Shown here: positions 45,701 to 59,172 of the stretch, piece by piece | How positions within the stretch are numbered: position 1 is the first letter of the stretch | Layout of the letters: each line of letters begins with the position of its first letter | Assembly: GCA_965213995.1 (NCBI GenBank) | Contig: OZ243929.1 | Coordinates: forward strand, 92,134-156,133 | Source of the DNA: Gammaproteobacteria bacterium | GTDB lineage: Bacteria; Pseudomonadota; Gammaproteobacteria; Steroidobacterales; Foliamicaceae | Direction of reading: 5' to 3' | DNA: 64,000 nt | Position numbers and translations under genes: made by a program | The notes under the pieces: generated by a model | The model's database searches: none | What the model saw: the letters and a program-made list of their open reading frames with translations, nothing else | What the model was told of the DNA's origin: nothing

Positions 45701-45886
45701 CGCAGCATCGCCCGTGGCGGATTCGCTTTGCCCGTTGCGGCTTCGGGCCTAGCCCCCGGAAACCTTGTGTCTTGTGTCCCGACCGCTAGCTAGCTGAATA
45801 AGCACTACTACGAAATTCAGGGTAGGCACAACACTCACCCGGCGGGGTCCCCAGAGGGAGCCCATTCATCGTGGAAGATCCGATCG

Positions 45887-46015: not shown

Positions 46016-46110
46016 TGGACTCATCCTTTCCGTCGACATAAGGATTGTTTTCCATGGTAACAGAGAATGACGGGGCACTGGGGGAGGCTATCGGGAGGAT
46101 GAATTGCCTG

Positions 46111-47253
46111 CTACGCCAGCCGCCCCAGCCACAGCGCATCCAGAAAGGCTTCCCAGGGCATCACCTCGATGCCGTCAACGAGGCGGCGCACAGGCTCCAA
46201 GCACACCAGCACATGGCGTTTGGCGATGCCTTCCTCCTCAAGCGCCGCAAGTCCGCGCCAGTCGCGGGCGCCGACGTTGGCCTTCGCCTTCACCTCGACA
46301 GCAATGCCCTGAAAAACGAAATCCACCTCGAATCCCGATTTCGACCGCCAGTAACCGGGCGGGTCAAGCTGGCGGTAGCTGCAGTACGCGGAAATTTCCT
46401 GGTGGATGAAGCTCTCGAAGGCTTCGCCGTATTCGGGCGTGCCCGGCGCCAAGCCTTGGCGGCCTTGCAGGTGCCGCGCCAATCCGATGTCGAACAAATA
46501 GTACTTCGAGGTGGAAACCGCCTTGCGCTTGCGGGTCTCCGTGATGGCCGGCATCTCGCGGGCGATGAACGTGTCCTTGAGGATGTCGTAGTAGGCTCTC
46601 GCCGTGGAGGCCGGCACCTGGGCGTCGTTCGCGAAGCTGGCGAAGTTGACCATCTGCCCGTGGGCCAAGGCTGCGGCGCGCAAAAAGCGGCTGAACGCGC
46701 CAACGTTGCGTGCCGCCGCTTCCGCCGCCACCTCTTCTTTGAGGTAGTCGCCGGCATAGGCGGCCAGATCCTCGCGGGGCGCGTCGGAGAAATAGATCGG
46801 CGGCAGCAAACCGTGCTCCAAGGCGCGATGCAGGTCGAAGCGCGCCCCCAGCTCATGCCGGGTGAAAGGGTGCAAGGCGCGGGACCGGGCGCGTCCGCCG
46901 AGCAGGTTCACGCCCTTGCGGCGCAGGCTGCGGGCGCTGGAGCCGGTCATCAGAAAGCGAACGCCATGCCGCTCGATCATCAGATGCACTTCGTTGAGCA
47001 GTTCCGGGAGTTTCTGGATATCGTCAATGACCACAAGGGAAGTTTCGGGCGTCAACGCCTCGCGGATCAGCGCCGGGTTGCGCGAGAGCCGGAGAAAGAG
47101 CGCTTGATCAAGCAGGTCGTAAACCGGGCAGCCGGCCAACTGCTGGCGGATCAGCGTGGACTTGCCGGTCTGGCGGGGGCCGAATAGGAAGCAGGACTTG
47201 CCTGCCAGCACTTCCGCAATCTGGAGATGGCGCGGCACATCGGAATGGATCAT
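46111..47253 (-). CDS. AAA ATPase with DUF4143-type C-terminal domain (second, diverged copy)
   Basis: 380 aa. FLFGPRQTGKSTLIRQ Walker A, VVIDDIQKLPELL, C-terminal ..YWRSKSGFEVDFVFQGIAVEVKAKA. Confidence 0.8.
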   Translation of the reverse strand: MIHSDVPRHLQIAEVLAGKSCFLFGPRQTGKSTLIRQQLAGCPVYDLLDQALFLRLSRNPALIREALTPETSLVVIDDIQKLPELLNEVHLMIERHGVRFLMTGSSARSLRRKGVNLLGGRARSRALHPFTRHELGARFDLHRALEHGLLPPIYFSDAPREDLAAYAGDYLKEEVAAEAAARNVGAFSRFLRAAALAHGQMVNFASFANDAQVPASTARAYYDILKDTFIAREMPAITETRKRKAVSTSKYYLFDIGLARHLQGRQGLAPGTPEYGEAFESFIHQEISAYCSYRQLDPPGYWRSKSGFEVDFVFQGIAVEVKAKANVGARDWRGLAALEEEGIAKRHVLVCLEPVRRLVDGIEVMPWEAFLDALWLGRLA

Positions 47254-47546
47254 TGGTGATAATCAGCAGAGCTATTGCTGATAATCATGACAATCAACAG
47301 CAGACCTGTCAATCACGCGGACCCGCCCCGCCGCCGGTGCGCGGCTCAGGTTCGAAATGTTTCTAGATCCCGCACATCACCAAAATTTTGGTAGTGTATC
47401 AGTTTGACTTTTCCCTCCGGCTTCCGCTGTTGGTACTGTCTCAGTTTGAAAATCACGGTGGTGGCTTGGCTCGAAGATCGTGCCTGCCGGCATGGGCCAG
47501 CCGGTCCCACAGGCCGCCCCTGGCCTGTGGGACCGGCTCCCTTTGG

Positions 47547-48197
47547 TCAGCGGATGCGCACCCCGTCCTCATAGAGATGGCCGTCCGGCTCGTTATAGCC
47601 GGAGGGCAGGCTGCGGCCGCAGCCCTCGCCACTCGACAAGAAGCTGCTGTTGCGGGTTTTCCTGACTGCATACGGCTTGGGGTTGCTCCTAATTTCATCA
47701 ACCCAGATGGCCATCATGCCGCTGCCGATGTTCCCGCCAAAGCCCTTGATCACGGCTCCGGTCCTGGGCCGGATATCCAGGGTGAGGTCCCGGTTCAAGG
47801 CTCCGGTTCCAAACGTGGCATAACCGCCTTCTCGACTCGGGGCGAGATTTTGCCACGCTCCACCCTCGCGCCGCCATTCCAGCTGGTTCCATTCAGTGGA
47901 TGGCTGGGTTTTGACTTCAATTCTGACGGTTGATCCGCCAAAGTCTCTGAAGGCGACGGCGGGATTGGTGGACGACAGGCGCAGATGCCAGCGCAAGTGG
48001 TCGCCGCCGCAGCCGCCCACGTGGTAGCCGTTGATGTTGCCGGTGACGGAGATCGTGCATGTTCCAGTTGTGCAGGCGTTCTGCGCCATCACCGCCGATG
48101 GCAGGGCCAGCGTCAGGGCCGCCAATGCGACGATGAGCGCTGTCCGGTGTCCAAGATGTGTTTTGTTCTGGGGGGGGGGGGGGGTGGAGCGGATCAT
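47547..48197 (-). CDS. Secreted protein of unknown function with an N-terminal poly-Pro tract
   Basis: 216 aa. MIRST-PPPP-QNKTHLGHRTALIVALAALTLALPSAVMA|QNACTTGTC... has a signal-peptide-like h-region and an AxA site. The C15 tract occupies codons 5-10. Confidence 0.6.
   Translation of the reverse strand: MIRSTPPPPQNKTHLGHRTALIVALAALTLALPSAVMAQNACTTGTCTISVTGNINGYHVGGCGGDHLRWHLRLSSTNPAVAFRDFGGSTVRIEVKTQPSTEWNQLEWRREGGAWQNLAPSREGGYATFGTGALNRDLTLDIRPRTGAVIKGFGGNIGSGMMAIWVDEIRSNPKPYAVRKTRNSSFLSSGEGCGRSLPSGYNEPDGHLYEDGVRIR
48170..48184. repeat. Homopolymer G15 (C15 on the coding strand)
   Basis: ttctGGGGGGGGGGGGGGGtggagcggatcat. Confidence 0.9.
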
Positions 48198-48317
48198 GGG
48201 GTTGTCTCCAATTGGTGAGAGCTCTCATTATACCGCCTTTGCCGTCGGAGTGAATTTCAAACTGATGCACTACCAAAGTTTTGCGATTCGAGGTAACTTG
48301 GGGTAACTTCGGTATAA

Positions 48318-49493
48318 ATGGATGCCCGAACCAACCCTTACGCCCCCGGAGCCGGCGCCCCCCCGCCCGAGCTGGCCGGACGCGATGAACTCATCGACGA
48401 GGCCGCCATTGCCTTGGATCGGATACGCAATGGCTTGGCGGCCAAGAGCCTGCTCATGGTGGGGCTCCGCGGCGTGGGCAAAACCGTGCTCTTGAACCGC
48501 ATCTTCCGGGATGCGGAATGCCGGGGCTTCACCACGCTCCTGCTCGAAGCGCCGGAAGGGCGCTCGCTGCCCGGCTTGCTGGCCGCGCCGCTGCACAGCG
48601 CCCTTGCGAAGATGAGCCGCCGTGCCGCTGCCGGCGATGCCGCAAGGCGGGCGCTCCGGGCGCTTGCCGGATTTGCGCGCGCCATGAAGGTCAATTTCGG
48701 CGACATCAGCATCGGCATCGATATCGAGGCAGAGCCGGGGTTTGCGGACAGCGGCCACTTGGACTTCGACCTGAGCGATCTGCTCGCTGCGGTGGGCGAA
48801 GCCGCAAAGGACCAGAACACCGCGTTCGCACTGTTTATCGACGAACTGCAATACGTTGAGGAAAGCCAGCTTGCCGCCTTGATCGCCGCCCTTCACCGCG
48901 CCGCCCAACGGCAACTCCCCGTCACGCTCATTGGCGCCGGGCTGCCCCAACTCGTAGCCCACGCGGCCGCCGCGAAATCATACGCCGAAAGATTGTTCCG
49001 CTTTCCCGAAATAGGCCCGCTGCCCGAGGATGCGGCCCGACACGCCCTTGAAGCGCCCGCCAGGAAGCGGAATGTGCTTTTTCATCCCGATGCCCTTTCG
49101 GCGATCGTGCGGCGCACGCAAGGCTATCCCTACTTCCTTCAAGAATGGGGCAAGCACAGTTGGGATTGCGCCGAGGCATCCCCGATCACAGCGCAAGATG
49201 TCGATGCGGCCACGGCGCAAGCCACCGCGGAACTGGATGCCAGCTTCTTCCGCGCCCGTTTTGATCGGCTGGCCCCGTCGGAAAAGCGCTATTTGCGGGC
49301 TATGGCGGAGCTGGGTCCGGGGCCGCACCGTTCGGGGGAAATCAGCGGGATGCTCGCCAAGGGCGTGGCAGTCGTCGCGCCGACTCGCGCCAAGCTCATC
49401 GCAAAAGGCATGATCCACAGTCCCGCCCACGGCGACACCGGCTTTACCGTGCCGCTGTTCGACGAATTCCTGCGGCGGGTGCTGCGGGATTGA
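48318..49493 (+). CDS. P-loop ATPase (Orc1/Arch_ATPase-like)
   Basis: 391 aa. LLMVGLRGVGKTVLLN Walker A, FALFIDELQY Walker B. Its stop overlaps the next ORF start (TTGA). Confidence 0.65.
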   Translation: MDARTNPYAPGAGAPPPELAGRDELIDEAAIALDRIRNGLAAKSLLMVGLRGVGKTVLLNRIFRDAECRGFTTLLLEAPEGRSLPGLLAAPLHSALAKMSRRAAAGDAARRALRALAGFARAMKVNFGDISIGIDIEAEPGFADSGHLDFDLSDLLAAVGEAAKDQNTAFALFIDELQYVEESQLAALIAALHRAAQRQLPVTLIGAGLPQLVAHAAAAKSYAERLFRFPEIGPLPEDAARHALEAPARKRNVLFHPDALSAIVRRTQGYPYFLQEWGKHSWDCAEASPITAQDVDAATAQATAELDASFFRARFDRLAPSEKRYLRAMAELGPGPHRSGEISGMLAKGVAVVAPTRAKLIAKGMIHSPAHGDTGFTVPLFDEFLRRVLRD

Positions 49494-50464
49494 CTCGCAA
49501 GCCTTTGCGAGCGGCGTCCGCGCCCGGGAGCGCTTCGGAGCAGCCGTTGCGCCATTACCAGGGCTACGGCCTGCGCTTGGAGTCGAGCGTCGATTTGCCG
49601 TGGCCCGCCGCCGCGCCGTGCCCCGGTGACGAAGCGGATCTGTCCGTTCGCGGCGGGGCGGTGCCGCAGGCGCTCGCATCGCCGGCGGACGAATGCGGCT
49701 TTTGGCAGACGGCGCCCGGCGCCCTGCTGCTGAATGCGCCCGGCATCGCCCGTTGCCTGGTCTGCGAATCCGGCCGGCTGATCCGCTTCGATCCGGCGGA
49801 GGACGGCGGCGGCGGCGCGGTGGCCGCGGCGCTTGAATCCGCGCTCGCCGCCTGCCTGCAGATGCGCGGCGTCCTGACCCTGCGCGCCAGCGCCGTCGCC
49901 ACGGCCGAGGGCGCGGCGGTGCTGGCCGGGCGCGCCGCGACCGGCAAATCGACCCTGGCCGCGGCCCTGGCGGACCTCGGATACCCGCTGTTGGCCGACG
50001 GCATCGTTGCCGTTGCTGTTGCCGGCAACGGCGGCGGGGCGCCGCGCGCCCTGCCCGGATTTCCAAACATGCGCCTGCAAAACCGCGCGCTGAAAATTCT
50101 GGACCCCTCTTGGCAGTCCGCCGCCGCCCCCCCGCGCCCCGAAACGAAAAGCCGCATGGTTCCCGCCCGCCGCTTCCACGGCGAAGCCATGCCGGTGCGC
50201 GCCGTTTATCTGCTCAACCGGAAGGCGGATGCCGAAATCGCATGCAAGCAGCTTTCCCAGACCCAGGCGTTCGCCGCTCTGACCGCGGCCACCTGCCGTT
50301 TGCGGTTCCTGCGCGGCTTGGGCGCCGAGCGCGGCCATTTCCGCGCCGTCGCATCCGTCGCCAAGCGCGCGCCGGTGGAGCGCCTCACCTGGCCTGCCGC
50401 CGCCTGCGCGCCGCCGACCGCGGCCGATTGGATGGCTCAACGCCTGCCGCCGCCGTGCCCTTGA
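49490..50464 (+). CDS. HPr-kinase-like P-loop protein, copy 2
   Basis: LRASAVATAEGAAVLAGRAATGKSTLAAALADLGYPLLADGIVAV parallels 40041..40949. The putative TTG start is uncertain. Confidence 0.65.
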   Translation: MTRKPLRAASAPGSASEQPLRHYQGYGLRLESSVDLPWPAAAPCPGDEADLSVRGGAVPQALASPADECGFWQTAPGALLLNAPGIARCLVCESGRLIRFDPAEDGGGGAVAAALESALAACLQMRGVLTLRASAVATAEGAAVLAGRAATGKSTLAAALADLGYPLLADGIVAVAVAGNGGGAPRALPGFPNMRLQNRALKILDPSWQSAAAPPRPETKSRMVPARRFHGEAMPVRAVYLLNRKADAEIACKQLSQTQAFAALTAATCRLRFLRGLGAERGHFRAVASVAKRAPVERLTWPAAACAPPTAADWMAQRLPPPCP

Positions 50465-51324
50465 TTCTGCTCGCCTCCTACCCCAAGTCCGGCAACACCT
50501 GGATGCGTGCGCTGCTGTCCAACTACCTGAGCGAAGGCGAGGAGCCGGTTTTCGTCAACGCGCTGGTGAACAGCCCCATCCTCAGCCGCCACGAGTTCGA
50601 CGAGCGGCTGGGGCTTGCGTCCGCGGCCCTGACCGACGGCGAAATCCTGCGGCTGCGTCCGCGCCTCAACGAATCGCTGGCGGCCGAAGCCGCCGACGCT
50701 GCCGTGCCCGTCTTCGCGAAGACGCACGAGCGCTTTCCGCGCCTGCCGGACGGGGCGGCGCTGTACGCCGAGCCGATGTTTTCCGGCGCGGTCTGCATGG
50801 TGCGCAACCCGCTGGATGTCGCCGTCTCCTACGCGCATCACCTGCAATGCGACCTCGACCGCGCCGTCGCAACGATGGGCGATGCCGAGGCCATGCTCGC
50901 GCCCGAGCGCAACCGCATCCACGCCGCGCTTCCGAGCCATGTTTGCGACTGGAGCGGCAATGTCCTGAGTTGGCTTGAGCAAACGGAATTGCCGCTGCGA
51001 ACGATACGCTACGAGGATATGCACGCGAACCCCGAAGCCGCGCTGGAGGCGGTGGCCGCTTTCGCGGGCTTGCGCCGCGATTCCGCCCGCCTGGCCCGGG
51101 CCGTGGACCACTCGCGCTTCGAGCGGCTGCGCGAGCAGGAGGCGCGCCACGGGTTCTGGGAGCGCCAGCCCACGGCGCCGAGCTTCTTCAGGGGCGGCCG
51201 GGTGGGCGACGGGCGCGGCGCGCTGAGCCCGGAGCAGATTCGGCGGATTGCGGACCGGCACCGCCCGGCCATGGCCCGGCTGGGCTACCTGGAGGAGGCC
51301 GAGCGCTTCCTCGCTGACTGTTGA
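50461..51324 (+). CDS. PAPS-dependent sulfotransferase (copy 2)
   Basis: The TTG start overlaps the upstream stop (TTGA). It opens immediately with LILLASYPKSGNTWMRALLSNYL (5'-PSB loop PKSGNTW) and continues ..RYEDMHANPEA.. An N-terminal scrap of a paralogue lies at 58362..58408. Confidence 0.75.
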   Translation: MILLASYPKSGNTWMRALLSNYLSEGEEPVFVNALVNSPILSRHEFDERLGLASAALTDGEILRLRPRLNESLAAEAADAAVPVFAKTHERFPRLPDGAALYAEPMFSGAVCMVRNPLDVAVSYAHHLQCDLDRAVATMGDAEAMLAPERNRIHAALPSHVCDWSGNVLSWLEQTELPLRTIRYEDMHANPEAALEAVAAFAGLRRDSARLARAVDHSRFERLREQEARHGFWERQPTAPSFFRGGRVGDGRGALSPEQIRRIADRHRPAMARLGYLEEAERFLADC

Positions 51325-51378
51325 TCTGGGCGGATTCGCTTTGACCGCCGCATTTGGCCGCCAGTCAACGGCCAGATA

Positions 51379-52338
51379 TCAGATCATGTTGTCGAAATAG
51401 GCGATGGTTTTCTTCAGGCCCTCGCCAAGCGCGATGGACGGCTCCCAGCCCAGCTTCTCCTTGGCCAGCGTGATGTCGGGACAACGCCGGACGGGGTCGT
51501 CCTCTGGCAGCTCCTGGTAGACGAGTTTGGACTTGGTGCCCGTCAGCTCGATCACCTGTTCTGCGAGTTCCTTGATGGAGAACTCCGCGGGATTGCCCAG
51601 ATTGACCGGCCCGGTCAACTCGTCGGGCGCATCCATCAGCCGCCGGAAACCTTCGATCAAATCGTCCACGTAACAAAATGAACGGGTTTGGCTGCCGTCG
51701 CCGTGGATAGTGATGTCGTCGCCCTTGAGAGCCTGGACGATGAAATTGGACACCACCCGCCCGTCACCGGGATGCATCCGGGGGCCATAGGTGTTGAAGA
51801 CCCGGGCCACCCGGATATTCAGATTGTGTTGGCGGCGATAGTCGAAGAACAGGGTTTCCGCGCAGCGCTTGCCCTCGTCATAACAGCCCCGGCGGCCGAT
51901 GGGATTGACGTTGCCCTTGTAATCCTCGGTCTGGGGGTGGATGTCCGGATCTCCGTAAACCTCGCTGGTGGAAGCCTGGAATATCTTTGCCCGGACCCGC
52001 TTGGCCAGCCCCAGCATGTTGATCGCGCCGTGCACGCTGGTCTTGATCGTCTGCACGGGATCGTACTGGTAATGCACCGGAGACGCCGGGCAGGCGAGAT
52101 TATAGATCTCGTCGACTTCGATATAGAGGGGGAATGTCACGTCATGGCGCATCAGCTCGAAATGGGGGGAATCGAACAGGCCGAGGAGGTTGTCCTTGGC
52201 GCCGGTGAAGTAGTTATCGACGCACAGGACATCGTGCCCTTCGGCAACCAGGCGCTCGCAGAGGTGAGAACCGAGAAAACCGGCCCCTCCGGTCACCAGG
52301 ATGCGTTTTTTATGGAGCTTATATCGATTGCTTGACAT
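51379..52338 (-). CDS. uxs: UDP-glucuronate decarboxylase (UDP-xylose synthase)
   Basis: 319 aa. [44 protein letters not shown]. Confidence 0.85.
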
Positions 52339-52561
52339 AGGCTAATCGTTCCCGCAATAAGGATTAATGTGGGCAATCAACCCCGTATCAACCCCGCCTT
52401 CCGCGCCCTTCGCTGCTGGTTGCTTCAATTCCAGCCTGAGTGAGAGTCGCTCCAGCGCGGGCGCCTACCGGCTGCGGGGCGCGTTTCCGCCGCTTTGCGT
52501 TGACCGGAGGCTAATCTTGCGGGTCGAAGGGCGCGACCAAGGTCAACCGCCGCCTTCAAGA

Positions 52562-52747
52562 TCAGGAAACACCATAATCTTGGAATTCCGAGTTGAGGGA
52601 GTTTCTCTTTGGGCCAGAGAATGTCTCATCTAGGCCAACCGTTTTGACGGTCGGCGGGTGCCAGGGACGTTTACGGGATTCGCCGCTGCGGTTGCCGGTG
52701 GAGTTGCGCCGATTCTGGGGGGGGGGGGGGGTGGTTGTGGTGGGCAT
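52562..52747 (-). CDS. Candidate lasso-type precursor peptide with N-terminal poly-Pro tract (type 2, in frame)
   Basis: ATG at 52747. MPTTTT-PPPP-QNRRNSTGNRSGESRKRPWHPPTVKTVGLDETF|SGPKRNSLNSEFQDYGVS*. The leader block is conserved with 57928..58126 and 63044..63235, the C-terminus is variable and the last residue is Ser. Part of track ORF 52562..52780. Confidence 0.5.
   Translation of the reverse strand: MPTTTTPPPPQNRRNSTGNRSGESRKRPWHPPTVKTVGLDETFSGPKRNSLNSEFQDYGVS
52717..52731. repeat. Homopolymer G15 (C15 on the coding strand)
   Basis: gattctGGGGGGGGGGGGGGGtggttgtggtgggcat. Confidence 0.9.
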
Positions 52748-53002
52748 GGCGGAAGAATCCTCGCTCGGTTCAGGGTTCACGAAGAGCCAATCATATCACG
52801 CGAGGGCATCCACGCAGCGCTCTCGGCAAGTCATCCGGCCTAACCGTGCGGCGGGCGGTCTGGCGCGGGACTCGGTGAAGGCATCGGTGGCGCGTGTCGC
52901 CGAAAGCCTGCGGGCCGACCGAGCGGGTCGGAAAATTCTCCGTTTGCTAATCGCATTTTCATTCGCATGTTGTGAACAGGTCAGTGTTTTCCAAAATGAT
53001 AG

Positions 53003-53302
53003 GTGAGAGGTTACACTTACCGCGTGATACTGAGCTTTCGCCACAAGGGCCTCAAGCTGCTGTTCGAAAAGGGCGACCGGAGAAAAGTGCAATCGGAGTT
53101 CGCGGATAAAATCGAGCGGATACTGGCCCGCCTCGAGGAGTCCTCGACCGTTGACAACATGGACATCCCCGGTTTCCGATTGCACCGGTTGAGAGAAAAC
53201 CTCGCGGGCCGCTGGGCGGTCTCGGTGTCCGGCAATTGGCGGGTGGTCTTCAGATTCGAGGAGGGCCGCGCCAGCGAAGTGGACCTGTTGGACTACCATT
53301 AG
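53003..53302 (+). CDS. higB: HigB-type (RelE superfamily) toxin
   Basis: ..VILSFRHKGLKLLFEKGDRRKV...FRLHRLRENLAGRWAVSVSGNWRVVFRFEEGRASEVDLLDYH. The true start is probably the in-frame GTG at 53024. Confidence 0.75.
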   Translation: MRGYTYRVILSFRHKGLKLLFEKGDRRKVQSEFADKIERILARLEESSTVDNMDIPGFRLHRLRENLAGRWAVSVSGNWRVVFRFEEGRASEVDLLDYH

Positions 53303-53314
53303 GAGCAATCAGCG

Positions 53315-53605
53315 ATGGCTATGAAGAACCCGCCCCATCCGGGCCTCTCCGTAAGGCGCGATTGCCTGGAGCCTTTGGGGCTGAACATCACGGGAGCGGC
53401 CAAGCAACTCGGCGTCAGCCGAAAGCAGCTTTCCGATATCGTGAACTGCCGTGCCGGCATTTCCCCGGAAATGGCCATCCGGCTTGACAAGGCGTTTGGA
53501 GGCGGCGCCGAAACCTGGCTGAGGCTCCAAGCGGCTTATGACCTGGCGCGGGCAATGAAGCGCGCGGATCAATTCAAAGTGCGGAGGTTGCGGCCGGCGG
53601 CATGA
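53315..53605 (+). CDS. higA: HigA-type antitoxin (XRE HTH)
   Basis: [77 protein letters not shown]. Confidence 0.8.
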
Positions 53606-54404
53606 TCCGGTAGCCGAAGTGCTCCAGCAAATCGGCGCGGCTGCCGAATACGCGGTTGAACGCCTCGATTTTCGCGGCGTCGAGCCGGTCGATTTGCCGG
53701 CGGTTCATGTTGGCGAGCATCTCGTCGTACATCCCGTCCTTCACCCGCAGGCGCTGGCGCAGCTTGAGGTCGCGCAGTTCGGGAACCAGCGCGCGGATCC
53801 GCTCCTCGACCTCATGCGGCGCATCGCACATGTCCTCGTAGGTGAAAAAAGCCCCCCGGCCGCCGTGCCGCTCCAGGTTCCGGCGCTGCAGTTCCATGCA
53901 GGCGACGACATGCCGCGCGGCCGCGGAGGGGAGGTCGCCGCCGAAGCGGACGGCCTTCCGGGGCTGGTTCCTGCAAATGCCTTCGCACACGGCGTAGGGG
54001 TTGCGCACCATGAACAGGAACTTGGCGTTCGGAAAGTGCCGCGCGAGCTCGTCCACATGCAGCAGGAAATGCGGCGTCTTGGTGTAGAACACGGAGGCGG
54101 CGGGGTCGCGGGCGAACGCCTGGAAGTGCCAGGCTTTGCGTGTGCGCGGCCAGTCGTAGGCGTCCGGGTCGGCCAGACGGCTCCGCCATTCGGGCTCGCT
54201 CCAGATCAGCCCGCCGTGCTTGAGCGTGGTGGGGCCGGCGAAGCCGAGCGCGAACTGGCCTTCCCGCGGCAGGTTCCAGGTTGCCTTGCTGGTCGCCATC
54301 GCCTCCTTGAGGAAACTGGAGCCGCTGTTGTTCGGCGCGATGCCGAAAAGGTGCGTGCGAACGGCGCGCTCGAGGTCGTGCATCGCCCCGTACGCCGCGC
54401 TCAT
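53574..54404 (-). CDS. Sulfotransferase-family protein (copy 3)
   Basis: ATG at 54404 overlaps the GT8 stop (ATGA). ..[18 protein letters not shown].. (P-loop-like), ..[15 protein letters not shown]... It is the C-terminal part of track ORF 53574..55349. The assignment is tentative. Confidence 0.5.
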
Positions 54405-55396
54405 GGCGGCTTCCCCGCCTGTTCGCCGCCGCCAACACCGGCAGGCCCGCCGAAGGCGCGCGTCGCCAAGGCGGGCCAGGCCCGTCGGAGATGCGCGTCG
54501 TTCAGGCAGGCCAGCCACGCCTCGTGCCACCAGGCATAGGCCGGATGGGGGGCGAAAGCGGGGTCGCCGTCGGTCCAGCGCAGCATGGCGGCGGCGCTCC
54601 AGGGCTTGACCGGGCCGGTGAAGTGCAGCACCTTCGCGTCCTTCGGCGCCAGCCCCTCGCGCGCCAGAATCGCCTCCCTCATGTGCAGCGGATAGTTGTA
54701 AGTCGAACTGACCAGGCTTTGCCGTCCCGCGAAGTGCTGGTTCAGCAGGAACTGGTCGTTGGTGTGGACCGTGTCCGTGCCGCGCCAGGCGTCCGGCGCG
54801 ACCCGGCCCAGCAGCTCCGCGTAGGCGCGCTCGCCCGTCAGGCGCTCGTCGATAAGCAAAAACCCGGAATTGAACGTCCGCTCCAGCGCGCCTTTCGCCC
54901 CCGCAAGGGCGGGGCTGGCGAGCGGCTGGAACGAGACGGCATCGCGGCATCCTCCTGCCATGGACACGGAATCCCCGCAGCAGATCAGCGCCTCCCGGCG
55001 GTCGAAGAGTTCCCAGACCGGGCCGCGGAACAGGAGGTCGCTGTCGCAATAGAGCACCTTGCGGTAGCCGGCGATGCGGAACGCCTCCAGGCAGTGGAAG
55101 CTGGAAAGCCACCGCCGCTTCGCCAATGGCCAGCCGGCGAAGGCGGCCAGGCGGCGTCGCAGCGCGGGGCGCACCGGCTCCGGCCGCAGCGCCGGACAGG
55201 CTCGCGCCAGCGCCGCGCGGCGCTTGGCGGACAGTCCGTTGTGGAACAGCAGCATCCCGCCGCAAAAGCCGGGATGCTGCTGTAGAAACGAATGGGCGGC
55301 GACGATGGCGCCGGGCAGGAATTTCTCGGTGGCGGCCAGCGCGATGCAAACGTCCGCTCCGCGGCCGGCCGGGATGCCTGGCGGCTTAGAAGTCAA
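54401..55396 (-). CDS. Glycosyltransferase family 8-like
   Basis: 331 aa. ..VCIALAATEKFLPGAIVAAHSF.., ..VLYCDSDLLF.. (DxD), ..FNSGFLLID... It overlaps the cyclase-2 stop by 11 nt. Confidence 0.6.
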   Translation of the reverse strand: MTSKPPGIPAGRGADVCIALAATEKFLPGAIVAAHSFLQQHPGFCGGMLLFHNGLSAKRRAALARACPALRPEPVRPALRRRLAAFAGWPLAKRRWLSSFHCLEAFRIAGYRKVLYCDSDLLFRGPVWELFDRREALICCGDSVSMAGGCRDAVSFQPLASPALAGAKGALERTFNSGFLLIDERLTGERAYAELLGRVAPDAWRGTDTVHTNDQFLLNQHFAGRQSLVSSTYNYPLHMREAILAREGLAPKDAKVLHFTGPVKPWSAAAMLRWTDGDPAFAPHPAYAWWHEAWLACLNDAHLRRAWPALATRAFGGPAGVGGGEQAGKPP

Positions 55397-57263
55397 GGAA
55401 CTGCAACGCCTGGATCAAGGGCCTGGGGCGCAGGTGGCGGCGAATGCGGGCAGGGTCGAAGTCGCCCAGCAGTTCAAGGTCGCGCGTCAGGCGGCCCAGG
55501 TTCAGGTAGCGGCCGCGCGCCGTTCCCGCGCCGCCGCCGGCGATCATCGAGCGCGCTTGCGCCAAGGTTTCGGCAAGCGCGTCCCTATAGGCCCGGTACC
55601 GAGCGGGGTCCGTTTTGTCGCGGTTCCGCAGCACCAGTTCGGGCAGCACTTCGCGCTGGGAACGCCGCATCAGCCGCCGGCTTTCGGGGCCGCGGAGGAA
55701 CTGCTCCGGCGGCAGCGCCAGGACGAATTCCAGCAGCCGGCGGTCCAGCAGCGGATAGCGGTACTCGATTCCCAGCCGCGCCCCGCTCGCGGCCCAGCCT
55801 TCGATGCGCCTGTCGATATAGCCGCTCGCAAGCAGGCCGAGCTGGACCGCTCGCGCGCCGGCCACCGGGACCGTCGGCGGCATGGGCAGCAGGCGGGCGC
55901 GGCGGGCGAAATCGGGGTGCAGGTAGCGGCCCGTCGGCGGCAGCGGCGTCTTGCCTTGGCGCAGCCGCCAAAGCGTGTCCCTCAAGGTTCTCACCGGTTC
56001 CATGGCTTGGACAAACGGCAGCGCCGCGCAGCGCGCGATGCCGAGCAGGGGAAAGCGGCGGTGCCCGAACTCGCGCCGCAGCGCCGCGAGCCGGCCTTTG
56101 CGCAAGAGGTCGGGGTGGTAGCCGCGGCCGCTGAACGAGACCCCCTCGTCGCCGCCCCAGCCGGACAGCAGCACGCCCACGCCCTGCGCCGCTGCCGAAC
56201 GCTGCACGGGGCATTCGTTGAGGTGGTAGCTGTCGTGCCGGGTCACATCGCGGCGCAAGGTCGCCAGCATATCGGCGGCAGTGGGCGGGCAGTGGTGGAC
56301 CTCCAGGCCCTCCTGGGCCGCGACCGCTTCGACAAGGCGGTATTCGCCGCCGGGAGCGGCGTCGCGGCTCCCCTCCGCCGCCTCGGGCAGCCAGGTGAAC
56401 GCAGGCGGGGCAGGGCGGCCCGCGGCCCGCAGCGCCCGGGCCGCGAGCGCCGAAACGCAGGAGGAGTCGAGGCCGCCGCTCAGATGCACGCCCACGCGGC
56501 GGGGGCCGCCCGCGCGATCCGCCACCGCGGCGGCGCACAGCGCGAGGCAGGCCTCGGCGGCTTCGCCGTCGTCGATGCGGCCAAGCGCGGGAATCCGCTC
56601 CGGATGCCACCAGCGCCGCACGCGCCAGCCGCCGGCTTGTGCCAATAGCAAGTGGCCCGGCGGCAGGCGCCGCACCGCGCGGTGGAACGTGCGTTCGCCG
56701 AACGGCCAGAAAATGTGGCGGGCAAGCCAGGAGGCGGTCGCGTCCTCGTCCAGGTCCGCCTCCACGCCGGGCGCCGCGAGCACCGCGTTCACGTCGCTGG
56801 CGAACACGATGCGGTCCGCCGCGGCGGCGTAGTAGAGCGGCCGGGCGCCAATGTGGTCCCGGGCAATAAGCAGCCGGCGGCGTTCGGCGTCCCACGCGGC
56901 GAAAGCGTAATCGCCGTACAGCCGCTGCGGACACTCCGCGCCCCATTTGCGCCAGGCGCGCAAAATCAACTCCGCGTCCGTCAGCGGCTCGTCCTTTCGT
57001 TCGGAAACGCCCAGCGCGGCGCGCAACTCGTCGCGCCCGTCGATGCGGGCGCTTGCGACCACCCAATCGCCCGCGCCGCCGCGCGCGCAGCAGGCCGCGC
57101 CGTCCGCCGCCTCATGCCCGCGCCAGCCCAAGCGGGCCGCTTCCGCCGTCCAGGCCGCGGTGGCATCTGTTCGGCGCCCCGGCAGGGCGGCCACCATGGC
57201 ATCGAGCGCCGCCGCGCCGGGGTCGCCGCGCAAGGCTTGGATTCCGCAGATCATGCTGGCCAT
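55386..57263 (-). CDS. Asparagine-synthetase-like protein, lasso-cyclase type (copy 2)
   Basis: 625 aa. MASMICGIQ (no Cys2), ..VVASARIDGRDELRAALG.., SGGLDSS PP-loop. The first ~147 codons are duplicated at 63523-63965. Confidence 0.75.
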   Translation of the reverse strand: MASMICGIQALRGDPGAAALDAMVAALPGRRTDATAAWTAEAARLGWRGHEAADGAACCARGGAGDWVVASARIDGRDELRAALGVSERKDEPLTDAELILRAWRKWGAECPQRLYGDYAFAAWDAERRRLLIARDHIGARPLYYAAAADRIVFASDVNAVLAAPGVEADLDEDATASWLARHIFWPFGERTFHRAVRRLPPGHLLLAQAGGWRVRRWWHPERIPALGRIDDGEAAEACLALCAAAVADRAGGPRRVGVHLSGGLDSSCVSALAARALRAAGRPAPPAFTWLPEAAEGSRDAAPGGEYRLVEAVAAQEGLEVHHCPPTAADMLATLRRDVTRHDSYHLNECPVQRSAAAQGVGVLLSGWGGDEGVSFSGRGYHPDLLRKGRLAALRREFGHRRFPLLGIARCAALPFVQAMEPVRTLRDTLWRLRQGKTPLPPTGRYLHPDFARRARLLPMPPTVPVAGARAVQLGLLASGYIDRRIEGWAASGARLGIEYRYPLLDRRLLEFVLALPPEQFLRGPESRRLMRRSQREVLPELVLRNRDKTDPARYRAYRDALAETLAQARSMIAGGGAGTARGRYLNLGRLTRDLELLGDFDPARIRRHLRPRPLIQALQFLDF

Positions 57264-57298
57264 TCAGTCTTCCGGGAGCGCTTCCAGGCACCGTTCGA
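56821..57298. repeat. Near-identical duplication, copy 1 (copy 2 = 63523..64000, runs off the window)
   Basis: The cyclase-2 5' end plus 35 nt upstream is repeated with only a few substitutions. Confidence 0.9.
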
Positions 57299-57424
57299 TT
57301 GCATCGGCCAACAGCAGCGGATGCCGATCCGGATTAGGAGAAAAGGCTATAGCACAGCGCACCCAACCAACTCCCACGGCGCCGCGGTGCGGGGCAACTG
57401 CAAAGCGGCCCCACATCCGTAATG

Positions 57425-57528
57425 AGGATGCGTTCCCCGCTCTCGAAAACACGGCGCGCTTTCTCGGCCTGCGCCTCGTCGTCCCTCAACAAGTAGCGGA
57501 GCAAGACATTGGCATCGACTGCGATCAC
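57425..57528 (-). pseudogene. vapC: VapC-type PIN toxin, N-terminal remnant
   Basis: The GTG at 57528 overlaps the antitoxin stop (GTGA). VIAVDANVLLRYLLRDDEAQAEKARRVFESGERILITDV; the sense then breaks at ~57425. Confidence 0.6.
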
Positions 57529-57761
57529 CGCGTTTGAGTTCTTTTGCTTTCCATCGCGCACTGAAGCGATTGCTCATCCGAAACCGCTTCGTCCGACCGA
57601 AGATGAGCAAGGCACCCCCAAGCGCTGCCGGGCTGCTGGCGGACTATGGTGATGCGTCCGTCGGCGACGAAACTTCGGCATTCATCGCCTAGCTCCATGC
57701 CAGCCAGACGACACTGGCTGGCCGGTAGCGTCAACTGCCGCTTGGCGCCGACTTTAGGCAC
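57525..57761 (-). CDS. AbrB/SpoVT-family antitoxin (VapB/MazE-like)
   Basis: 78 aa. MPKVGAKRQLTLPASQCRLAGMELGDECRSFVADGRITIV is a swapped-hairpin AbrB-type N-terminus. Confidence 0.6.
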   Translation of the reverse strand: MPKVGAKRQLTLPASQCRLAGMELGDECRSFVADGRITIVRQQPGSAWGCLAHLRSDEAVSDEQSLQCAMESKRTQTR

Positions 57762-57927
57762 GGCGACCTCCCGGAAACTTTGCGTGTTTGGGAAAAGCCA
57801 TTGTGCCTATTTCCTTACTTGTAATAATGGGCAAAGAAAAAGCGCAGCACACAAGACCAGCGCCGCGAGCATCTCGCTCCGCCCTTGGCGGGGAGCGGCC
57901 TGCCAAAAGCCTCTACGGCGCAAGTTC

Positions 57928-58126
57928 CTAGCTTTGTTCTTCTCCAAGAAAGAATCCATATGATGGGGATTCCTCCTGAACGGCATTAAATCTGGGGGAG
58001 CCTCGCGTCTCAGTCAGTTCAACCGTTTTGACGGTCGGCGGGCGCCAGGAGCGTTTGCGGGGTTCGCCGCTACGGTTGTCGGCGGAGTTGCCCGAATTCT
58101 GGGGGGGGGGGGGGGGTATTTGACAT
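57928..58126 (-). pseudogene. Candidate lasso-type precursor (type 2), out of frame by 1 nt at the tract (candidate OFF state)
   Basis: RBS GAGGAAG, then ATG (58126) MSNT + C16. With C15 it reads PPPPQNSGNSADNRSGEPRKRSWRPPTVKTVELTETR|GSPRFNAVQEESPSYGFFLGEEQS*. As sequenced it stops after ~18 codons. Confidence 0.45.
58101..58116. repeat. Homopolymer G16 (C16 on the coding strand)
   Basis: gaattctGGGGGGGGGGGGGGGGtatttgacat. Confidence 0.9.
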
Positions 58127-58361
58127 GAGGGCTTCCTCGTTTCTTGGTTCAGGAAGTCTGAATGGTATTTTCAAAGAGGCATCCGCGCAAGTCATCCGAT
58201 CTCAGTCATCCGATCTCAGTGCGCGGCGAGCGAAACGACCGGCGCAGATTTTCAGGCATCGGTTTCATGCTAGATTGCCGATCATGGCGCTGGTCAATAT
58301 GAAAACCACGGGTGAGATGGGGGCCAAGGGCCGCTGAAGCCAAACTGATGCCTCGCCGACG

Positions 58362-58408
58362 ATGCCCCTGATCCTGCTCGCTTCCTACCCCAAGTCCGGC
58401 AACACTTC
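58362..58408 (+). pseudogene. 5' scrap of a PAPS sulfotransferase paralogue
   Basis: MPLILLASYPKSGNT matches the start of 50461..51324. It is cut at ~58409, next to the IS30 remnant. Confidence 0.6.
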
Positions 58409-58483
58409 TTGACTTCGACGGTTAAATCACGCAAGTAATTGATTTTATTGAGTCGCCGCTTCCACTCCGAAGTGCAACGCTTG

Positions 58484-59074
58484 TTAGACGGTGATTTTTC
58501 TCCTGATGTGGAGGGCAGCATAGCATCGGGTGGAGCTCGGACGGCGCCTTTCGGAGCGAGGGCGCAGCCCGAACGGAGAAAGGCGCCGTCCGAGCCCGGT
58601 TTTCTCCGGTGCTGCGCCCCGGCAGAGGCGCCGGGCCGCGACCCGGGCGCGGCGGCGCGCCTTCCTGCCCCGCCGACGAAGGTGACGGTGCAGCGTCCCG
58701 CCACTCGCCCGATCCTCCCAGACTTGGCGGTATATCCACGTCTTGCCCACCGACGGACCGCCCTCAAGGCGCAAACGCCCAGCGATCTGCTCAGGACTCC
58801 ACTTCAGCCGCAGCTTCCCCTCGATCCGGCCCCGCAACTCCGCCGTCAGCTTGCGCGGACGCGACGACGCCTCGCGCCGGCGAGCCTCCGACAGCCGCTG
58901 CGCCTGCTTCATCCGGTAGCCCCGAAGCCCGCCGTTGCGGCGCAACTCCCGGCTCGCCGTAGAGGCCGAAACCCCCAGCACACGCGCAACCCCCCGAATC
59001 GACTCGCCGCTTTTCCTCAGCGCGTAAATCTGGCATCGTGACCCGTAGGTCAGGTGACGGTAGCCTCTGGCCAT
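58484..59074 (-). pseudogene. IS30-family transposase, N-terminal part only
   Basis: MARGYRHLTYGSRCQIYALRKSGESIRGVARVLGVSASTASRELRRN...KWSPEQIAGRLRLEG is the IS30 HTH region. The catalytic DDE region is absent, and an 18-bp-stem hairpin (58535-58595) interrupts the 3' part. Confidence 0.7.
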
Positions 59075-59172
59075 CGAACACCCTCCTTCTTCCAATATCG
59101 GAGAGTATCGCCGTCACTTGGCCTCCTTCTCAAATCATCCGTTGCACTTCATAGTGGAACGGGCGACACTAC

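What the first reader, a model, noticed from the sequence alone, without database searches (positions are those of the whole stretch)
52562..52747. Family of small ORFs with a conserved lasso-like leader, hypervariable Ser-terminated cores and a poly-Pro tract after the start codon
Seen: three minus-strand mini-ORFs (52562..52747, 57928..58126, 63044..63235) share a nearly invariant block and then diverge completely.
- Copy 52: ..SGESRKRPWHPPTVKTVGLDETF|SGPKRNSLNSEFQDYGVS*
- Copy 58 (tract -1 nt): ..SGEPRKRSWRPPTVKTVELTETR|GSPRFNAVQEESPSYGFFLGEEQS*
- Copy 63: ..LEKPRKRSWRPPTVKTVNLGETR|SGDNSSLSTEFGEYFLQDS*
A conserved N-terminal part with a variable C-terminal part is the classic RiPP leader/core signature. 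Counting back from the bar gives Thr at -2, Leu -5, Val -7, Val -10, Pro -12/-13 and Trp -15. That is the aromatic/Pro/hydrophobic/Thr(-2) spacing known for lasso leaders bound by PqqD-type RREs (established knowledge). All three cores start with Ser or Gly and end in Ser, the residue phosphorylated by the HPr-kinase-like enzyme in paeninodin-type lasso pathways. Kinase-like genes, sulfotransferases, an RRE and cyclase-like genes all lie within 15 kb.
Odd point: the first acidic residue is at core position 10-11, not the canonical 7-9. So either the cleavage site is offset by 1-2 residues or the macrolactam is non-canonical. These peptides fall below normal gene-calling thresholds.
Basis: partly seen in the sequence, partly recalled or inferred. 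Interest (0 to 1): 0.85.

Follow-up and report, generated by a model that had tools for sequence, protein, structure and literature searches.

The report
Switchable lasso-type peptide precursor gene family
The window holds five (not three) tiny genes for precursors of lasso-type modified peptides, each with a highly unstable run of C bases just after its start codon that can switch that gene on or off, and their ring-forming residue sits where no known lasso peptide has it.

Summary
Five minus-strand mini-ORFs share a WxxPx(V/I) leader, Thr at -2, a C-terminal Ser and an invariant E-x3-Y core motif. Three belong to family 1 and two to a second family at 41048..41246 and 45786..46015.

Lasso-type genes surround them: a PqqD RRE whose closest solved relative is the lasso B1 protein TbiB1, two AsnB-like cyclases, HPr-kinase-like genes, three sulfotransferase types, GT8, an Asp/Asn hydroxylase and NTP_transf_5. 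No B2 protease lies in the window, but a bona fide lasso B2 sits in the orthologous loci of sister genomes.

About 40 copies occur in seven related marine gammaproteobacterial MAG contigs. More distant relatives keep the same gene association.

Two features are new:
- The "poly-Pro" is a hypermutable poly-C tract of 10-29 nt. Its length differs between copies with identical flanks, shows no 3n bias, and leaves the nearest ATG in frame in only a third of copies. This is the signature of phase variation, and two of the five window copies are ON.
- The invariant Glu lies at core position 9-12, not the canonical 7-9, so lasso topology is unproven.

Verdict: a new variant of kinase-type lasso pathways. 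Interest is high.

The parts
63044..63235 (-). Precursor A63, family 1 (MRSRPNKNRNLT-P7-EFLEKPRKRSWRPPTVKTVNLGETR|SGDNSSLSTEFGEYFLQDS). In frame (ON).
63180..63201 (-). Poly-C tract C22 in A63. Copies with identical flanks have C13, C14 and C19 in other genomes.
57928..58126 (-). Precursor A58, family 1 (..KRSWRPPTVKTVELTETR|GSPRFNAVQEESPSYGFFLGEEQS). The ATG is 1 nt out of frame (OFF).
58101..58116 (-). Poly-C tract C16 in A58.
52562..52747 (-). Precursor A52, family 1 (MPTTTT-P4-QN..SRKRPWHPPTVKTVGLDETF|SGPKRNSLNSEFQDYGVS). In frame (ON).
52717..52731 (-). Poly-C tract C15 in A52.
45786..46015 (-). Precursor A45, family 2 (..PEKRPWRAPAITEMTIGSSTM|NGLPLGTPPGECCAYPEFRSSAYSAS). All upstream ATGs are 2 nt out of frame (OFF).
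45961..45978 (-). Poly-C tract C18 in A45. The L002 copy with near-identical flanks has C13.
41048..41246 (-). Precursor A41, family 2 (..PEKRPWSTPAITEMTIESFTM|SGRGTYPEETVNYLPLS). The ATG is 1 nt out of frame (OFF). It is the only window copy with Glu at canonical position 8/9.
41197..41209 (-). Poly-C tract C13 in A41. The L002 copy with near-identical flanks has C17.
39126..39452 (+). PqqD-family RRE (lasso B1-like).
   Evidence: Pfam PqqD 1.2e-16. Best NCBIfam model is lasso_PqqD_Bac at 59 bits, below the cutoff of 80. Best PDB match is TbiB1 5v1u, E 2e-13.
39406..40044 (+). Asp/Asn beta-hydroxylase-like tailoring enzyme.
   Evidence: Pfam Asp_Arg_Hydrox 1.4e-11
40041..40949 (+). HPr-kinase-like kinase (HprK2).
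41368..43308 (-). AsnB-like cyclase 2.
   Evidence: NF033535 lasso cyclase 313.6 bits (cutoff 525) against asparagine synthase 173 bits
44906..45700 (-). 264-aa protein with no Pfam family; probably a divergent sulfotransferase. In many other genomes it is fused to Asp/Asn hydroxylase.
   Evidence: Forty-nine of the top 50 fold matches are sulfotransferases, but all are weak (best E 0.013, TM up to 0.44). HVSRTGGT and RNPWDW motifs were read by eye.
49490..50464 (+). HPr-kinase-like kinase (HprK3).
50455..51324 (+). Sulfotransferase (Sulfotransfer_1).
53574..54404 (-). Sulfotransferase (Sulfotransfer_3).
54401..55396 (-). GT8 glycosyltransferase.
55386..57263 (-). AsnB-like cyclase 1, 98.9% identical to the L001 orthologue.
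57267..57338 (-). C-terminal remnant of an HprK-like gene upstream of cyclase 1.
62811..62951 (-). N-terminal fragment (aa 1-47) of HprK1 downstream of A63. The gene breaks off here, and a DDE transposase ORF (61913..62671) lies just beyond.
63522..63965 (-). Duplicated 5' part of cyclase 1 (aa 1-148; 99% DNA identity to 56820..57119).
36133..37407 (+). NTP_transf_5 nucleotidyltransferase. This kind of enzyme adds hexose to the phospho-Ser of pseudomycoidin.
   Evidence: PMC8498205
37570..38967 (+). Wzy_C (O-antigen-ligase-like) membrane protein. It sits next to NTP_transf_5 here and in L001, and carries a G13 tract near its 3' end.
34541..36145 (-). Undecaprenyl-phosphate glucose phosphotransferase (Bac_transf). 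It also sits next to NTP_transf_5 in the distant locus L023.

Best explanation
The five mini-ORFs are precursor genes of a lasso-type (split-B, kinase-bearing, paeninodin-like) RiPP pathway.

**Proposed maturation (inferred)**
1. The WxxPx(V/I)xx(V/M) part of the leader is bound by a PqqD-type RRE.
2. A B2 cysteine protease, encoded outside this window, cuts after the invariant Thr(-2)-x.
3. An AsnB-like cyclase activates the invariant core Glu (the E of E-x3-Y) and joins it to the new N-terminus. The N-terminus is usually Ser-Gly.
4. The near-invariant C-terminal Ser is phosphorylated by the HprK-like kinases.
5. Further decoration follows from the nucleotidyltransferase, GT8, three kinds of sulfotransferase and a hydroxylase.

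**The poly-C switch (partly shown, partly inferred)**
- Each precursor carries a hypermutable poly-C tract between its start codon and its leader.
- Slipped-strand changes in tract length put that precursor in or out of frame.
- A cell lineage would therefore express a shifting subset of a repertoire of about 6-8 core types from shared enzymes.

**Shown versus inferred**
- Shown: the gene family, its conservation pattern, its gene neighbourhood, the tract-length polymorphism and the frame states.
- Inferred: the cleavage site, the ring chemistry, the modifications and the switching within a population.
For: **Gene neighbourhood**
- The same association holds in 7 related contigs: PqqD lies directly after the precursor at least 10 times, and A-HprK-Cyc-GT8-ST3 operons recur.
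- B2 in L001 passes the curated lasso B2 cutoff. B2 is also present in L007, L012 and L023.
- The PqqD is closest to the lasso B1 protein TbiB1.
- More distant relatives, with cyclases 46-79% identical, keep cyclase, sulfotransferases and other lasso-type tailoring genes together. Where a precursor was found (all but L023), it keeps a W..P leader, a Ser/Gly start, Glu/Asp at position 10-12 and a C-terminal Ser. Thr(-2) becomes Val in L022.

**Peptide features**
- E-x3-Y is present in 41 of 42 cores.
- pN/pS is 0.5 only in the proposed frame.

**Poly-C tracts**
- 55 unique tracts of 9-29 nt were tabulated.
- Tracts with identical 36-nt flanks differ in length: C22/C13/C14/C19, C28/C17, C14/C23 and C16/C26.
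- Length mod 3 is 14:23:18, so there is no 3n preference.
- The nearest ATG is in frame in 15 of 45 copies, which is the chance value of one third.
- A paralogue pair in L019 differs only by a 12-nt C insertion after ATGTCAACC.
- An independent JGI contig also has a tract.
- Other tracts in the window sit in surface or polysaccharide genes, the classic targets of phase variation (PMC8437040).

**Literature**
HprK homologues phosphorylate the C-terminal Ser of lasso precursors, and a nucleotidyltransferase adds hexose to that phosphate (PMC8498205).
Against: - Only 10 of 42 cores have any Asp/Glu at position 7-9, the range in all known lasso peptides (PMC8498205, PMC10368454).
- Core residue 1 is sometimes Asn, Thr or Asp, which is atypical for a macrolactam N-terminus.
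- Neither a B2 gene nor an exporter was found in the window. Not every ORF was scanned for an exporter.
- The cyclases and PqqD score below NCBI's curated lasso cutoffs.
- The kinase gene next to cyclase 1 is broken in this window.
- Tract lengths come from consensus assemblies. Homopolymer errors could account for single-nt frame differences, though not for 9-nt differences.
- No read-level or expression data were available.
- All precursor tracts are poly-C on the sense strand, which could mean poly-Pro itself is selected.
Confidence: 0.6

Rival explanations
1. These are canonical lasso peptides with a shifted cleavage site. The protease cuts 1-2 residues later (after Ser-Gly), as the canonical Y(-17)xxP(-14)xL(-12) register would predict. 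That moves the invariant Glu from position 9-12 to 7-10.
For: - The W-to-Thr spacing is 13-14 residues instead of 15 (PMC10368454). Counting 17 residues from Trp lands after 'SG'.
- Gly at core position 2 is more conserved (36 of 42) than residue 1.
Against: - After such a cut the N-terminal residue would mostly be Pro, or else Asp, Ser, Thr, Gln or Arg. Pro has no primary amine.
- About a quarter of cores would still have Glu at position 10.
- Thr would no longer be at -2, although it is the invariant leader residue.
Confidence: 0.12
2. This is a distinct RiPP class that reuses lasso-like enzymes. The AsnB-like enzyme activates the invariant Glu but couples it to another nucleophile, for example the Tyr four residues on or an added amine. 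The product would be a small side-chain ring or an amide rather than a threaded lasso.
For: - The fixed E-x3-Y spacing contrasts with the variable distance from the N-terminus to Glu (9-12).
- The cyclases score below the lasso family cutoff.
- The acceptor lies outside position 7-9.
Against: - A true lasso B2 protease and a B1 are conserved in the clusters. That implies the N-terminus must be freed.
- The conserved small Ser-Gly start is typical of ring nucleophiles.
Confidence: 0.15
3. The poly-Pro is a translated, functional part of the leader, for example an EF-P-dependent translational brake or a rigid spacer. Out-of-frame copies would then be assembly errors or decaying pseudogenes, not a switch.
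For: - All precursor tracts are C on the sense strand.
- All six copies with the MSYDS.. N-terminus are in frame.
- 28 of 45 copies have some ATG in frame against about 21 expected.
- Called proteins P0002-P0010 contain 3-9 Pro.
Against: - Tract length shows no 3n preference.
- The nearest ATG is in frame at exactly the chance rate.
- Length differences of 5-11 nt between copies with identical flanks are too large for homopolymer error.
- Paralogues and distant relatives work without any tract.
- Tracts also lie inside unrelated surface genes, there read as poly-Gly.
Confidence: 0.2
4. The blocks are untranslated repeated DNA, such as relics of a mobile element or an RNA element.
For: - The region is full of IS fragments, toxin-antitoxin modules and duplications.
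- Three of the five window copies are out of frame.
Against: - pN/pS is 0.5 only in the peptide frame.
- The frame is open from the leader to a stop in every copy.
- Thr(-2), E-x3-Y and the terminal Ser persist across otherwise dissimilar cores.
- There is no Rfam match.
- The copies are fixed neighbours of RRE and cyclase genes.
Confidence: 0.03

Closest known systems
Paeninodin-type phosphorylated lasso peptides (Paenibacillus dendritiformis; also the Sphingobium yanoikuyae cluster)
   Same: - Split B1 (PqqD) and B2, an AsnB-like cyclase and an HPr-kinase homologue.
- The precursor ends in Ser, the residue the kinase phosphorylates on the linear precursor.
- Thr at -2.
- Sulfotransferase and nucleotidyltransferase genes have been noted in such clusters (PMC8498205, PMC5067487).
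   Different: - The ring acceptor there is at position 7-9; here the invariant Glu is at 9-12.
- Here there are many paralogous precursors per genome, three sulfotransferase types, GT8, a hydroxylase, Wzy_C and Bac_transf neighbours, and a poly-C tract in each precursor.
Pseudomycoidin (Bacillus pseudomycoides) and BsfA (Bradymonas sediminis) kinase-type lasso systems
   Same: - A kinase plus a nucleotidyltransferase decorate a Ser. In pseudomycoidin this gives hexose on the phospho-Ser.
- Leaders carry YxxPxL-type motifs.
- Non-Thr residues at -2 occur in this group. Val(-2) is seen here in L022 (PMC8498205, PMC10368454).
   Different: - BsfK phosphorylates Ser3, and the ring is Gly1-Asp8.
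- Neither system has a homopolymer tract, multiple sulfotransferases or a fixed E-x3-Y motif.
Simple-sequence contingency loci (poly-G/C tracts in the 5' coding regions of Campylobacter, Neisseria and Haemophilus surface genes)
   Same: - A long G/C homopolymer lies just after the start codon.
- Its length differs between otherwise identical alleles, with no 3n constraint.
- Roughly one third of copies are ON.
- Companion tracts sit in polysaccharide and surface genes (PMC8437040, PMC5380846).
   Different: - The targets there are enzymes and surface proteins of pathogens.
- No paper in the searched library links phase variation to a RiPP precursor.
- The tracts here are much longer (up to 29 nt), and the organism is an uncultured marine gammaproteobacterium.
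RaxX/RaxST sulfated RiPP of Xanthomonas (from memory, not tested)
   Same: It is a ribosomal peptide with a leader, and a PAPS-dependent sulfotransferase modifies a conserved Tyr next to acidic residues.
   Different: - RaxX has no RRE, cyclase or kinase, and its leader is removed by a peptidase-containing transporter.
- Tyr sulfation here is only a guess based on the invariant Tyr and the abundance of sulfotransferases.

Membership tests
Lasso peptide pathway | PqqD-type RRE (B1, or the N-terminal domain of B) | tested here: met
   - 39126..39452: Pfam PqqD 1.2e-16.
- Closest PDB chain is TbiB1, E 2e-13.
- The NCBIfam lasso PqqD model is the best hit but falls below its cutoff (59 against 80 bits).
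Lasso peptide pathway | B2 leader peptidase (transglutaminase-like Cys protease) | tested here: not met
   - Not in the 64-kb window: tblastn with the L001 B2 found nothing at E<=1e-3, and Pfam scans of the candidate ORFs found none.
- Present in the orthologous loci L001, L007 and L012 and in the distant L023.
- The L001 protein passes NF033537 (75.5 against 33 bits).
Lasso peptide pathway | AsnB-like macrolactam cyclase (C) | tested here: inconclusive
   - Two full genes are present.
- The best NCBIfam model is the lasso cyclase NF033535, at 313.6 and 288 bits. Both are below the cutoff of 525 but well above asparagine synthase at about 172 bits.
- No lasso cyclase matched in the PDB by sequence.
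Lasso peptide pathway | Leader with a YxxPxL-type RRE motif and Thr at the penultimate position | tested here: met
   - WxxPx(V/I) and Thr(-2) are present in all 40 copies of this clade.
- The spacing is 1-2 residues shorter than the canonical -17..-12 register (PMC10368454).
Lasso peptide pathway | Asp/Glu acceptor at core position 7-9, with a small residue (G/A/S/C) at position 1 | tested here: not met
   - The invariant Glu lies at position 9 (4 cores), 10 (6), 11 (20) or 12 (11).
- Only 10 of 42 cores have any D/E at 7-9.
- Residue 1 counts are S 32, N 4, A 2, T 2, G 1 and D 1.
Lasso peptide pathway | Threaded lariat topology of the product | not testable with these tools
   This needs MS/MS, NMR or ion mobility on the expressed product.
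Paeninodin-type (kinase) subgroup | An HPr-kinase homologue in the cluster and a precursor ending in Ser | tested here: met
   - HprK-like genes at 40041..40949 and 49490..50464, plus two remnants.
- 38 of 40 copies end in Ser, and the two exceptions are damaged.
- Phosphorylation itself was not tested.
Simple-sequence contingency (phase-variable) locus | A long homopolymer inside the 5' coding region whose length sets the reading frame | tested here: met
   - C13-C22 tracts lie between the ATG and the leader in all five copies.
- There is no start codon between the tract and the leader in the copies checked by eye (52 and 63).
- Two copies are in frame and three are out.
Simple-sequence contingency (phase-variable) locus | Tract-length polymorphism between otherwise identical alleles, without a 3n constraint | tested here: met
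   - Identical 36-nt flanks carry C13 to C22, C17/C28, C14/C23 and C16/C26.
- Length mod 3 is 14:23:18.
Simple-sequence contingency (phase-variable) locus | Reversible switching within one population at high frequency | not testable with these tools
   This needs raw reads or culture. Only consensus assemblies were available.

The most novel reading that the evidence does not exclude
This is a phase-variable repertoire of a new lasso-like topology class.

- The macrolactam rings have 9-12 residues, larger than any known lasso.
- A very short loop (E-x3-Y) follows the ring.
- The rings are held shut, or given their function, by bulky post-cyclization groups. Candidates are glycosyl-sulfate on the invariant Tyr (from the GT8-sulfotransferase pair, which is fused in L022) and a phospho-glycan on the C-terminal Ser (from the kinase, the nucleotidyltransferase and possibly a Wzy_C-type transferase fed by the adjacent Bac_transf).
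- Each of about 6-8 core types is switched on or off independently by its own poly-C tract.
- Portable promoter-ATG-tract cassettes move between precursor genes and secreted-protein genes by recombination at the tract.

The result would be a stochastic, combinatorial coat or secretome of decorated peptides in uncultured marine, possibly host-associated, bacteria.
Probability: 0.15. Interest if true: 0.92.

Novelty: new variant of a known kind. Interest (0 to 1): 0.78.

Why it matters
**A possible new level of control over peptide natural products**
- If the poly-C tracts switch, this may be the first case of contingency-locus control of RiPP precursors. No such link turned up in the searched library.
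- A bacterium would be varying which natural-product peptides it makes by slipped-strand mutation rather than by regulation.

**A challenge to lasso genome mining**
- An invariant acceptor Glu at position 9-12 breaks the 7-9 rule that defines lasso peptides and that genome-mining scores appear to rely on (my recollection, not checked here).
- That may be why this widespread clade has gone unannotated. There are hundreds of cyclase homologues at 45-55% identity, yet almost no called precursors.

**New chemistry to test**
- The cluster offers untested tailoring chemistry for lasso-type peptides: sulfation, GT8 glycosylation and a new sulfotransferase-like family often fused to Asp/Asn hydroxylase.
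- All of it is directly testable by heterologous expression.

Tried and rejected
- **Plasmid search.** Megablast of 38900..60000 against plasmids matched only the UDP-glucuronate decarboxylase gene at 75-79% identity. It gave no clue to the origin.
- **Metagenome scan.** The family-1 DNA pattern found nothing in JGI metagenomes. The pattern was too strict, because it required K-R-x-W. A JGI contig with K-A-P-W copies was later found through the cyclase.
- **Search for B2 in the window.** tblastn and Pfam at E up to 10 on the unknown ORFs found none. The 264-aa ORF I suspected is not a protease. It looks like a divergent sulfotransferase (weak fold scores).
- **Rescuing a canonical 7-9 ring.** Moving the cleavage site by +1 or +2 residues fits no single register for all cores (and reasoning).
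- **RNA element.** Rfam at gathering threshold found nothing in the window.
- **Promoter and terminator scans.** A sigma-70-like site was found only upstream of A63 and of the secreted-protein gene, which is not informative.
- **Paeninodin paper.** PMC4919450 is not held, so paeninodin's leader register could not be checked. My remembered sequence was not used as evidence.
- **HPr-rel-A and SynChlorMet systems.** I considered both and rejected them. Their models match only weakly (27-45 bits against cutoffs of 35-200).
Full report
**1. The observation**

The three reported minus-strand mini-ORFs exist at the stated coordinates.
- A52 (52562..52747) is in frame from its ATG and encodes 61 aa.
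- A63 (63044..63235) is in frame from its ATG and encodes 63 aa.

The three share a 62-nt block at 77-87% identity. The window is 62.8% GC.

It contains eight C/G homopolymers of at least 13 nt, where 0.03 are expected by chance.
- A41 (41048..41246)
- A45 (45786..46015), with the leader ..PEKRPW(S/R)(T/A)PAITEMTI..

A leader HMM run over all six frames finds exactly these five copies (E 6e-13 to 2e-10; the next hit is 0.006). The frame carries a coding signal. Pooled pN/pS of the leader block is 0.50 in the proposed frame against 0.92 and 1.18 in the shifted frames.

**2. The neighbourhood**

Pfam and NCBIfam scans give two gene sets.

Around the family-2 peptides:
- NTP_transf_5 (36133..37407) and Wzy_C (37570..38967)
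- PqqD (39126..39452)
- an Asp/Asn beta-hydroxylase (39406..40044)
- an HPr-kinase-like gene (40041..40949)
- A41
- an AsnB-like gene (41368..43308)
- a 264-aa protein (44906..45700)
- A45

Around the family-1 peptides:
- a second HprK-like gene (49490..50464) with Sulfotransfer_1 (50455..51324)
- A52
- Sulfotransfer_3 (53574..54404), GT8 (54401..55396) and an AsnB-like gene (55386..57263)
- A58
- IS and toxin-antitoxin debris
- A63

The two AsnB-like proteins score 314 and 288 bits on NCBI's lasso-cyclase model. That is below its cutoff of 525 but about twice their asparagine-synthase score.

The PqqD's closest solved relative is the lasso B1 protein TbiB1 (5v1u, E 2e-13).

The 264-aa protein has no Pfam family. 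A model built from 35 homologues (pLDDT 77) matches almost only sulfotransferases, though weakly (best E 0.013). The protein carries HVSRTGGT and RNPWDW motifs. In many genomes it is fused to an Asp/Asn hydroxylase.

No B2 protease is in the window. The kinase that should precede cyclase 1 survives only as fragments at 57267..57338 and 62811..62951. The first 148 codons of cyclase 1 are duplicated at 63522..63965. The island is therefore rearranged.

**3. Relatives elsewhere**

A profile search of 5.8 billion proteins found only ten called homologues. All have Pro runs after the start and a C-terminal Ser.

A degenerate DNA pattern for K-R-x-W-x-P-P-T-V-K-T-V hit 16 loci. They lie on only five chromosomes among 185,579 species genomes. 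All five are MAGs labelled Ca. Azophilus, Pseudomonadales, Pseudohongiella or Gammaproteobacteria. Ca. Azophilus belongs to Ca. Azotimanducaceae, also known as HTCC2089 (PMC12625764).

Together with two contigs found through the proteins (L001, L002), this gives 40 unique copies: 33 of family 1 and 7 of family 2.

The gene association holds everywhere:
- PqqD follows the 'ALDQTF' type of precursor at least ten times.
- Other types precede HprK-cyclase-GT8-Sulfotransfer_3 operons that are 97-99% identical to the window's.
- A Transglut_core3 protein lies a few kb away in L001 and L007, and a 42%-identical paralogue in L012.
- The L001 protein passes the curated lasso-B2 cutoff (75.5 against 33 bits).

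The cyclase has hundreds of homologues at 45-55% identity. Some come from MAGs labelled Acidobacteria and Gemmatimonadetes.

Six such loci were read (L019-L023 and L025). Each keeps the cyclase with sulfotransferases, plus varying subsets of HprK, GT8, NTP_transf_5, hydroxylase, PqqD, B2 and Bac_transf.

In five of the six (all but L023, where none was identified), a small precursor has a W..P.(V/I) leader, a Ser/Gly start, an acidic residue at position 10-12 and a C-terminal Ser.

**4. Anatomy of the peptides**

Thr at -2 of the proposed cleavage site is invariant in this clade. It is Val in L022, a variant known in kinase-type lasso systems (PMC10368454).

Trp, Pro and Val/Ile reproduce the YxxPxL RRE motif. 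However, Trp lies 13-14 residues before Thr(-2), against 15 in the canonical register (PMC10368454).

The cores are not hypervariable. They fall into 6-8 types that are conserved between genomes.

Across all types, 41 of 42 cores contain E-x3-Y. That Glu sits at core position 9 (4 cores), 10 (6), 11 (20) or 12 (11). Only 10 of 42 cores have any Asp/Glu at position 7-9, the range of every known lasso peptide (PMC8498205). Shifting the cleavage site by one or two residues does not produce a consistent canonical register.

**5. The poly-C tract**

The tract lies between a start codon and the leader. Some start codons have a Shine-Dalgarno-like sequence, clearest at A63. In the copies checked, no start codon lies downstream of the tract before the leader, so the tract must be translated.

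Evidence that the tract is hypermutable:
- Among 55 unique tracts, copies with identical 36-nt flanks differ widely in length. Examples are C22 in the window against C13, C14 and C19 elsewhere, and the pairs C28/C17, C14/C23 and C16/C26.
- Length mod 3 is 14:23:18, so there is no 3n preference.
- The nearest ATG is in frame in 15 of 45 copies, exactly the chance rate. Some 5' modules carry two overlapping ATGs in different frames, which raises 'any ATG in frame' to 28 of 45.
- In L019 two paralogues differ only by a 12-nt C insertion after ATGTCAACC. Distant relatives lack the tract altogether. The tract is therefore dispensable for leader function.
- An independent JGI contig has C10, and a genome whose cyclase is only 48% identical has C22.
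- The same promoter-ATG-tract module precedes a precursor in one genome and a signal-peptide protein in another. Pre-tract N-termini are also shuffled relative to post-tract sequences. This suggests recombination at the tract.

Other tracts in the window lie in:
- a secreted protein, after its ATG (47547..48197)
- an AlgX-like gene (21013..21031)
- the 3' end of the Wzy_C gene

Surface genes are the classic targets of simple-sequence phase variation (PMC8437040, PMC5380846). No paper in the searched library links phase variation to RiPP precursors, and none describes sulfated lasso peptides.

**6. Interpretation**

Best explanation (confidence 0.6): these are precursors of a kinase-type, split-B lasso-like pathway. 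The leader is bound by PqqD and cut after Thr-x. The invariant Glu is joined to the new N-terminus by the AsnB-like enzyme. The C-terminal Ser is phosphorylated, and the peptide is further glycosylated, sulfated and hydroxylated. Each precursor is gated by its own hypermutable tract. In this window two are ON and three are OFF.

The cleavage site, ring chemistry, modifications and within-population switching are all inferred.

Rivals:
- a shifted cleavage site that restores a canonical ring (0.12)
- a different crosslink made by a lasso-like enzyme (0.15)
- a functional translated poly-Pro, with frame breaks being errors or pseudogenes (0.20)
- untranslated repeats (0.03)

**7. Verdict**

One defining feature, the acceptor at position 7-9, was tested and not met. 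Another, B2, is absent from the window though present in the orthologous loci. The system most likely works like a lasso pathway.

Novelty: a new variant of a known kind. Interest: 0.78.

Noticed in passing
window 21013..21031, inside ORF 20664..22136(-): A 19-nt homopolymer (G on the coding strand) lies in the middle of a 490-aa membrane protein with an AlgX-like SGNH domain. It is read in frame as GGGGGG. This may be a phase-variable polysaccharide-modifying gene.
   Followed up: partly
window 38924..38936 (Wzy_C gene 37570..38967); L001 2284..2297: A G13/G14 tract sits about 30-110 nt before the stop of the O-antigen-ligase-like gene. Its position is conserved in a sister genome. A length change would alter only the C-terminal tail.
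   Followed up: partly
window 47547..48197(-), tract 48170..48184: - A 216-aa secreted protein (signal peptide, no Pfam family) has a C15 tract right after its ATG and is in frame.
- A weakly similar protein (27% identity) in L002 and signal-peptide ORFs in L013 and L018 also carry tracts.
- In L018 the upstream module is identical to that of a precursor gene in L003.
   Followed up: partly
window 4301..6325(+) and 22972..24918(+): Two carbamoyltransferase genes appear to be recent duplicates, since they share identical embedded ORFs. They lie within a large polysaccharide island of glycosyltransferases, epimerases and a WcaJ-like priming transferase.
   Followed up: no
window 44906..45700(-): - This 264-aa protein belongs to a widespread family with no Pfam model: 314 homologues, many at 55-66% identity.
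- About half of the listed homologues are 430-aa fusions with an Asp/Asn beta-hydroxylase domain.
- The fold model points weakly to a sulfotransferase.
   Followed up: yes
window 59522..61843(-): A ThiF/E1-like protein with DUF6791 (403 aa) lies next to a DUF2971 protein (294 aa). They sit between IS fragments and look like inserted cargo, possibly a defence module.
   Followed up: no
window 53003..53605(+), 57400..57800(-), 43558..44862(+), 46111..47253(-): A HigB/HigA pair, a remnant that by eye looks like an AbrB-type antitoxin plus a PIN toxin between A58 and cyclase 1, and two DUF4143 ATPase genes interrupt the peptide clusters. The island is a mosaic with frequent insertions.
   Followed up: no
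window 52468..52542(-): Just downstream of A52 there is a weak leader-like stretch (..PWSRPSTRKISL.., HMM E 0.006). It may be the relic of a sixth precursor.
   Followed up: no
L022 5656..7482 and 11817..13679; L021 5658..7535; L023 14718..16589: In distant relatives the tailoring genes are fused: GT8 with Sulfotransfer_3, and the HprK/ScmC-like kinase with Sulfotransfer_1. This suggests that glycosylation and sulfation, and phosphorylation and sulfation, act in sequence.
   Followed up: no
P0138, window A45, L002, L017: The two-Cys core NGLPLGTPPGECCAYP is conserved behind quite different leaders. This is unusual for a RiPP core and hints at a specific target or a disulfide-stabilised fold.
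   Followed up: no
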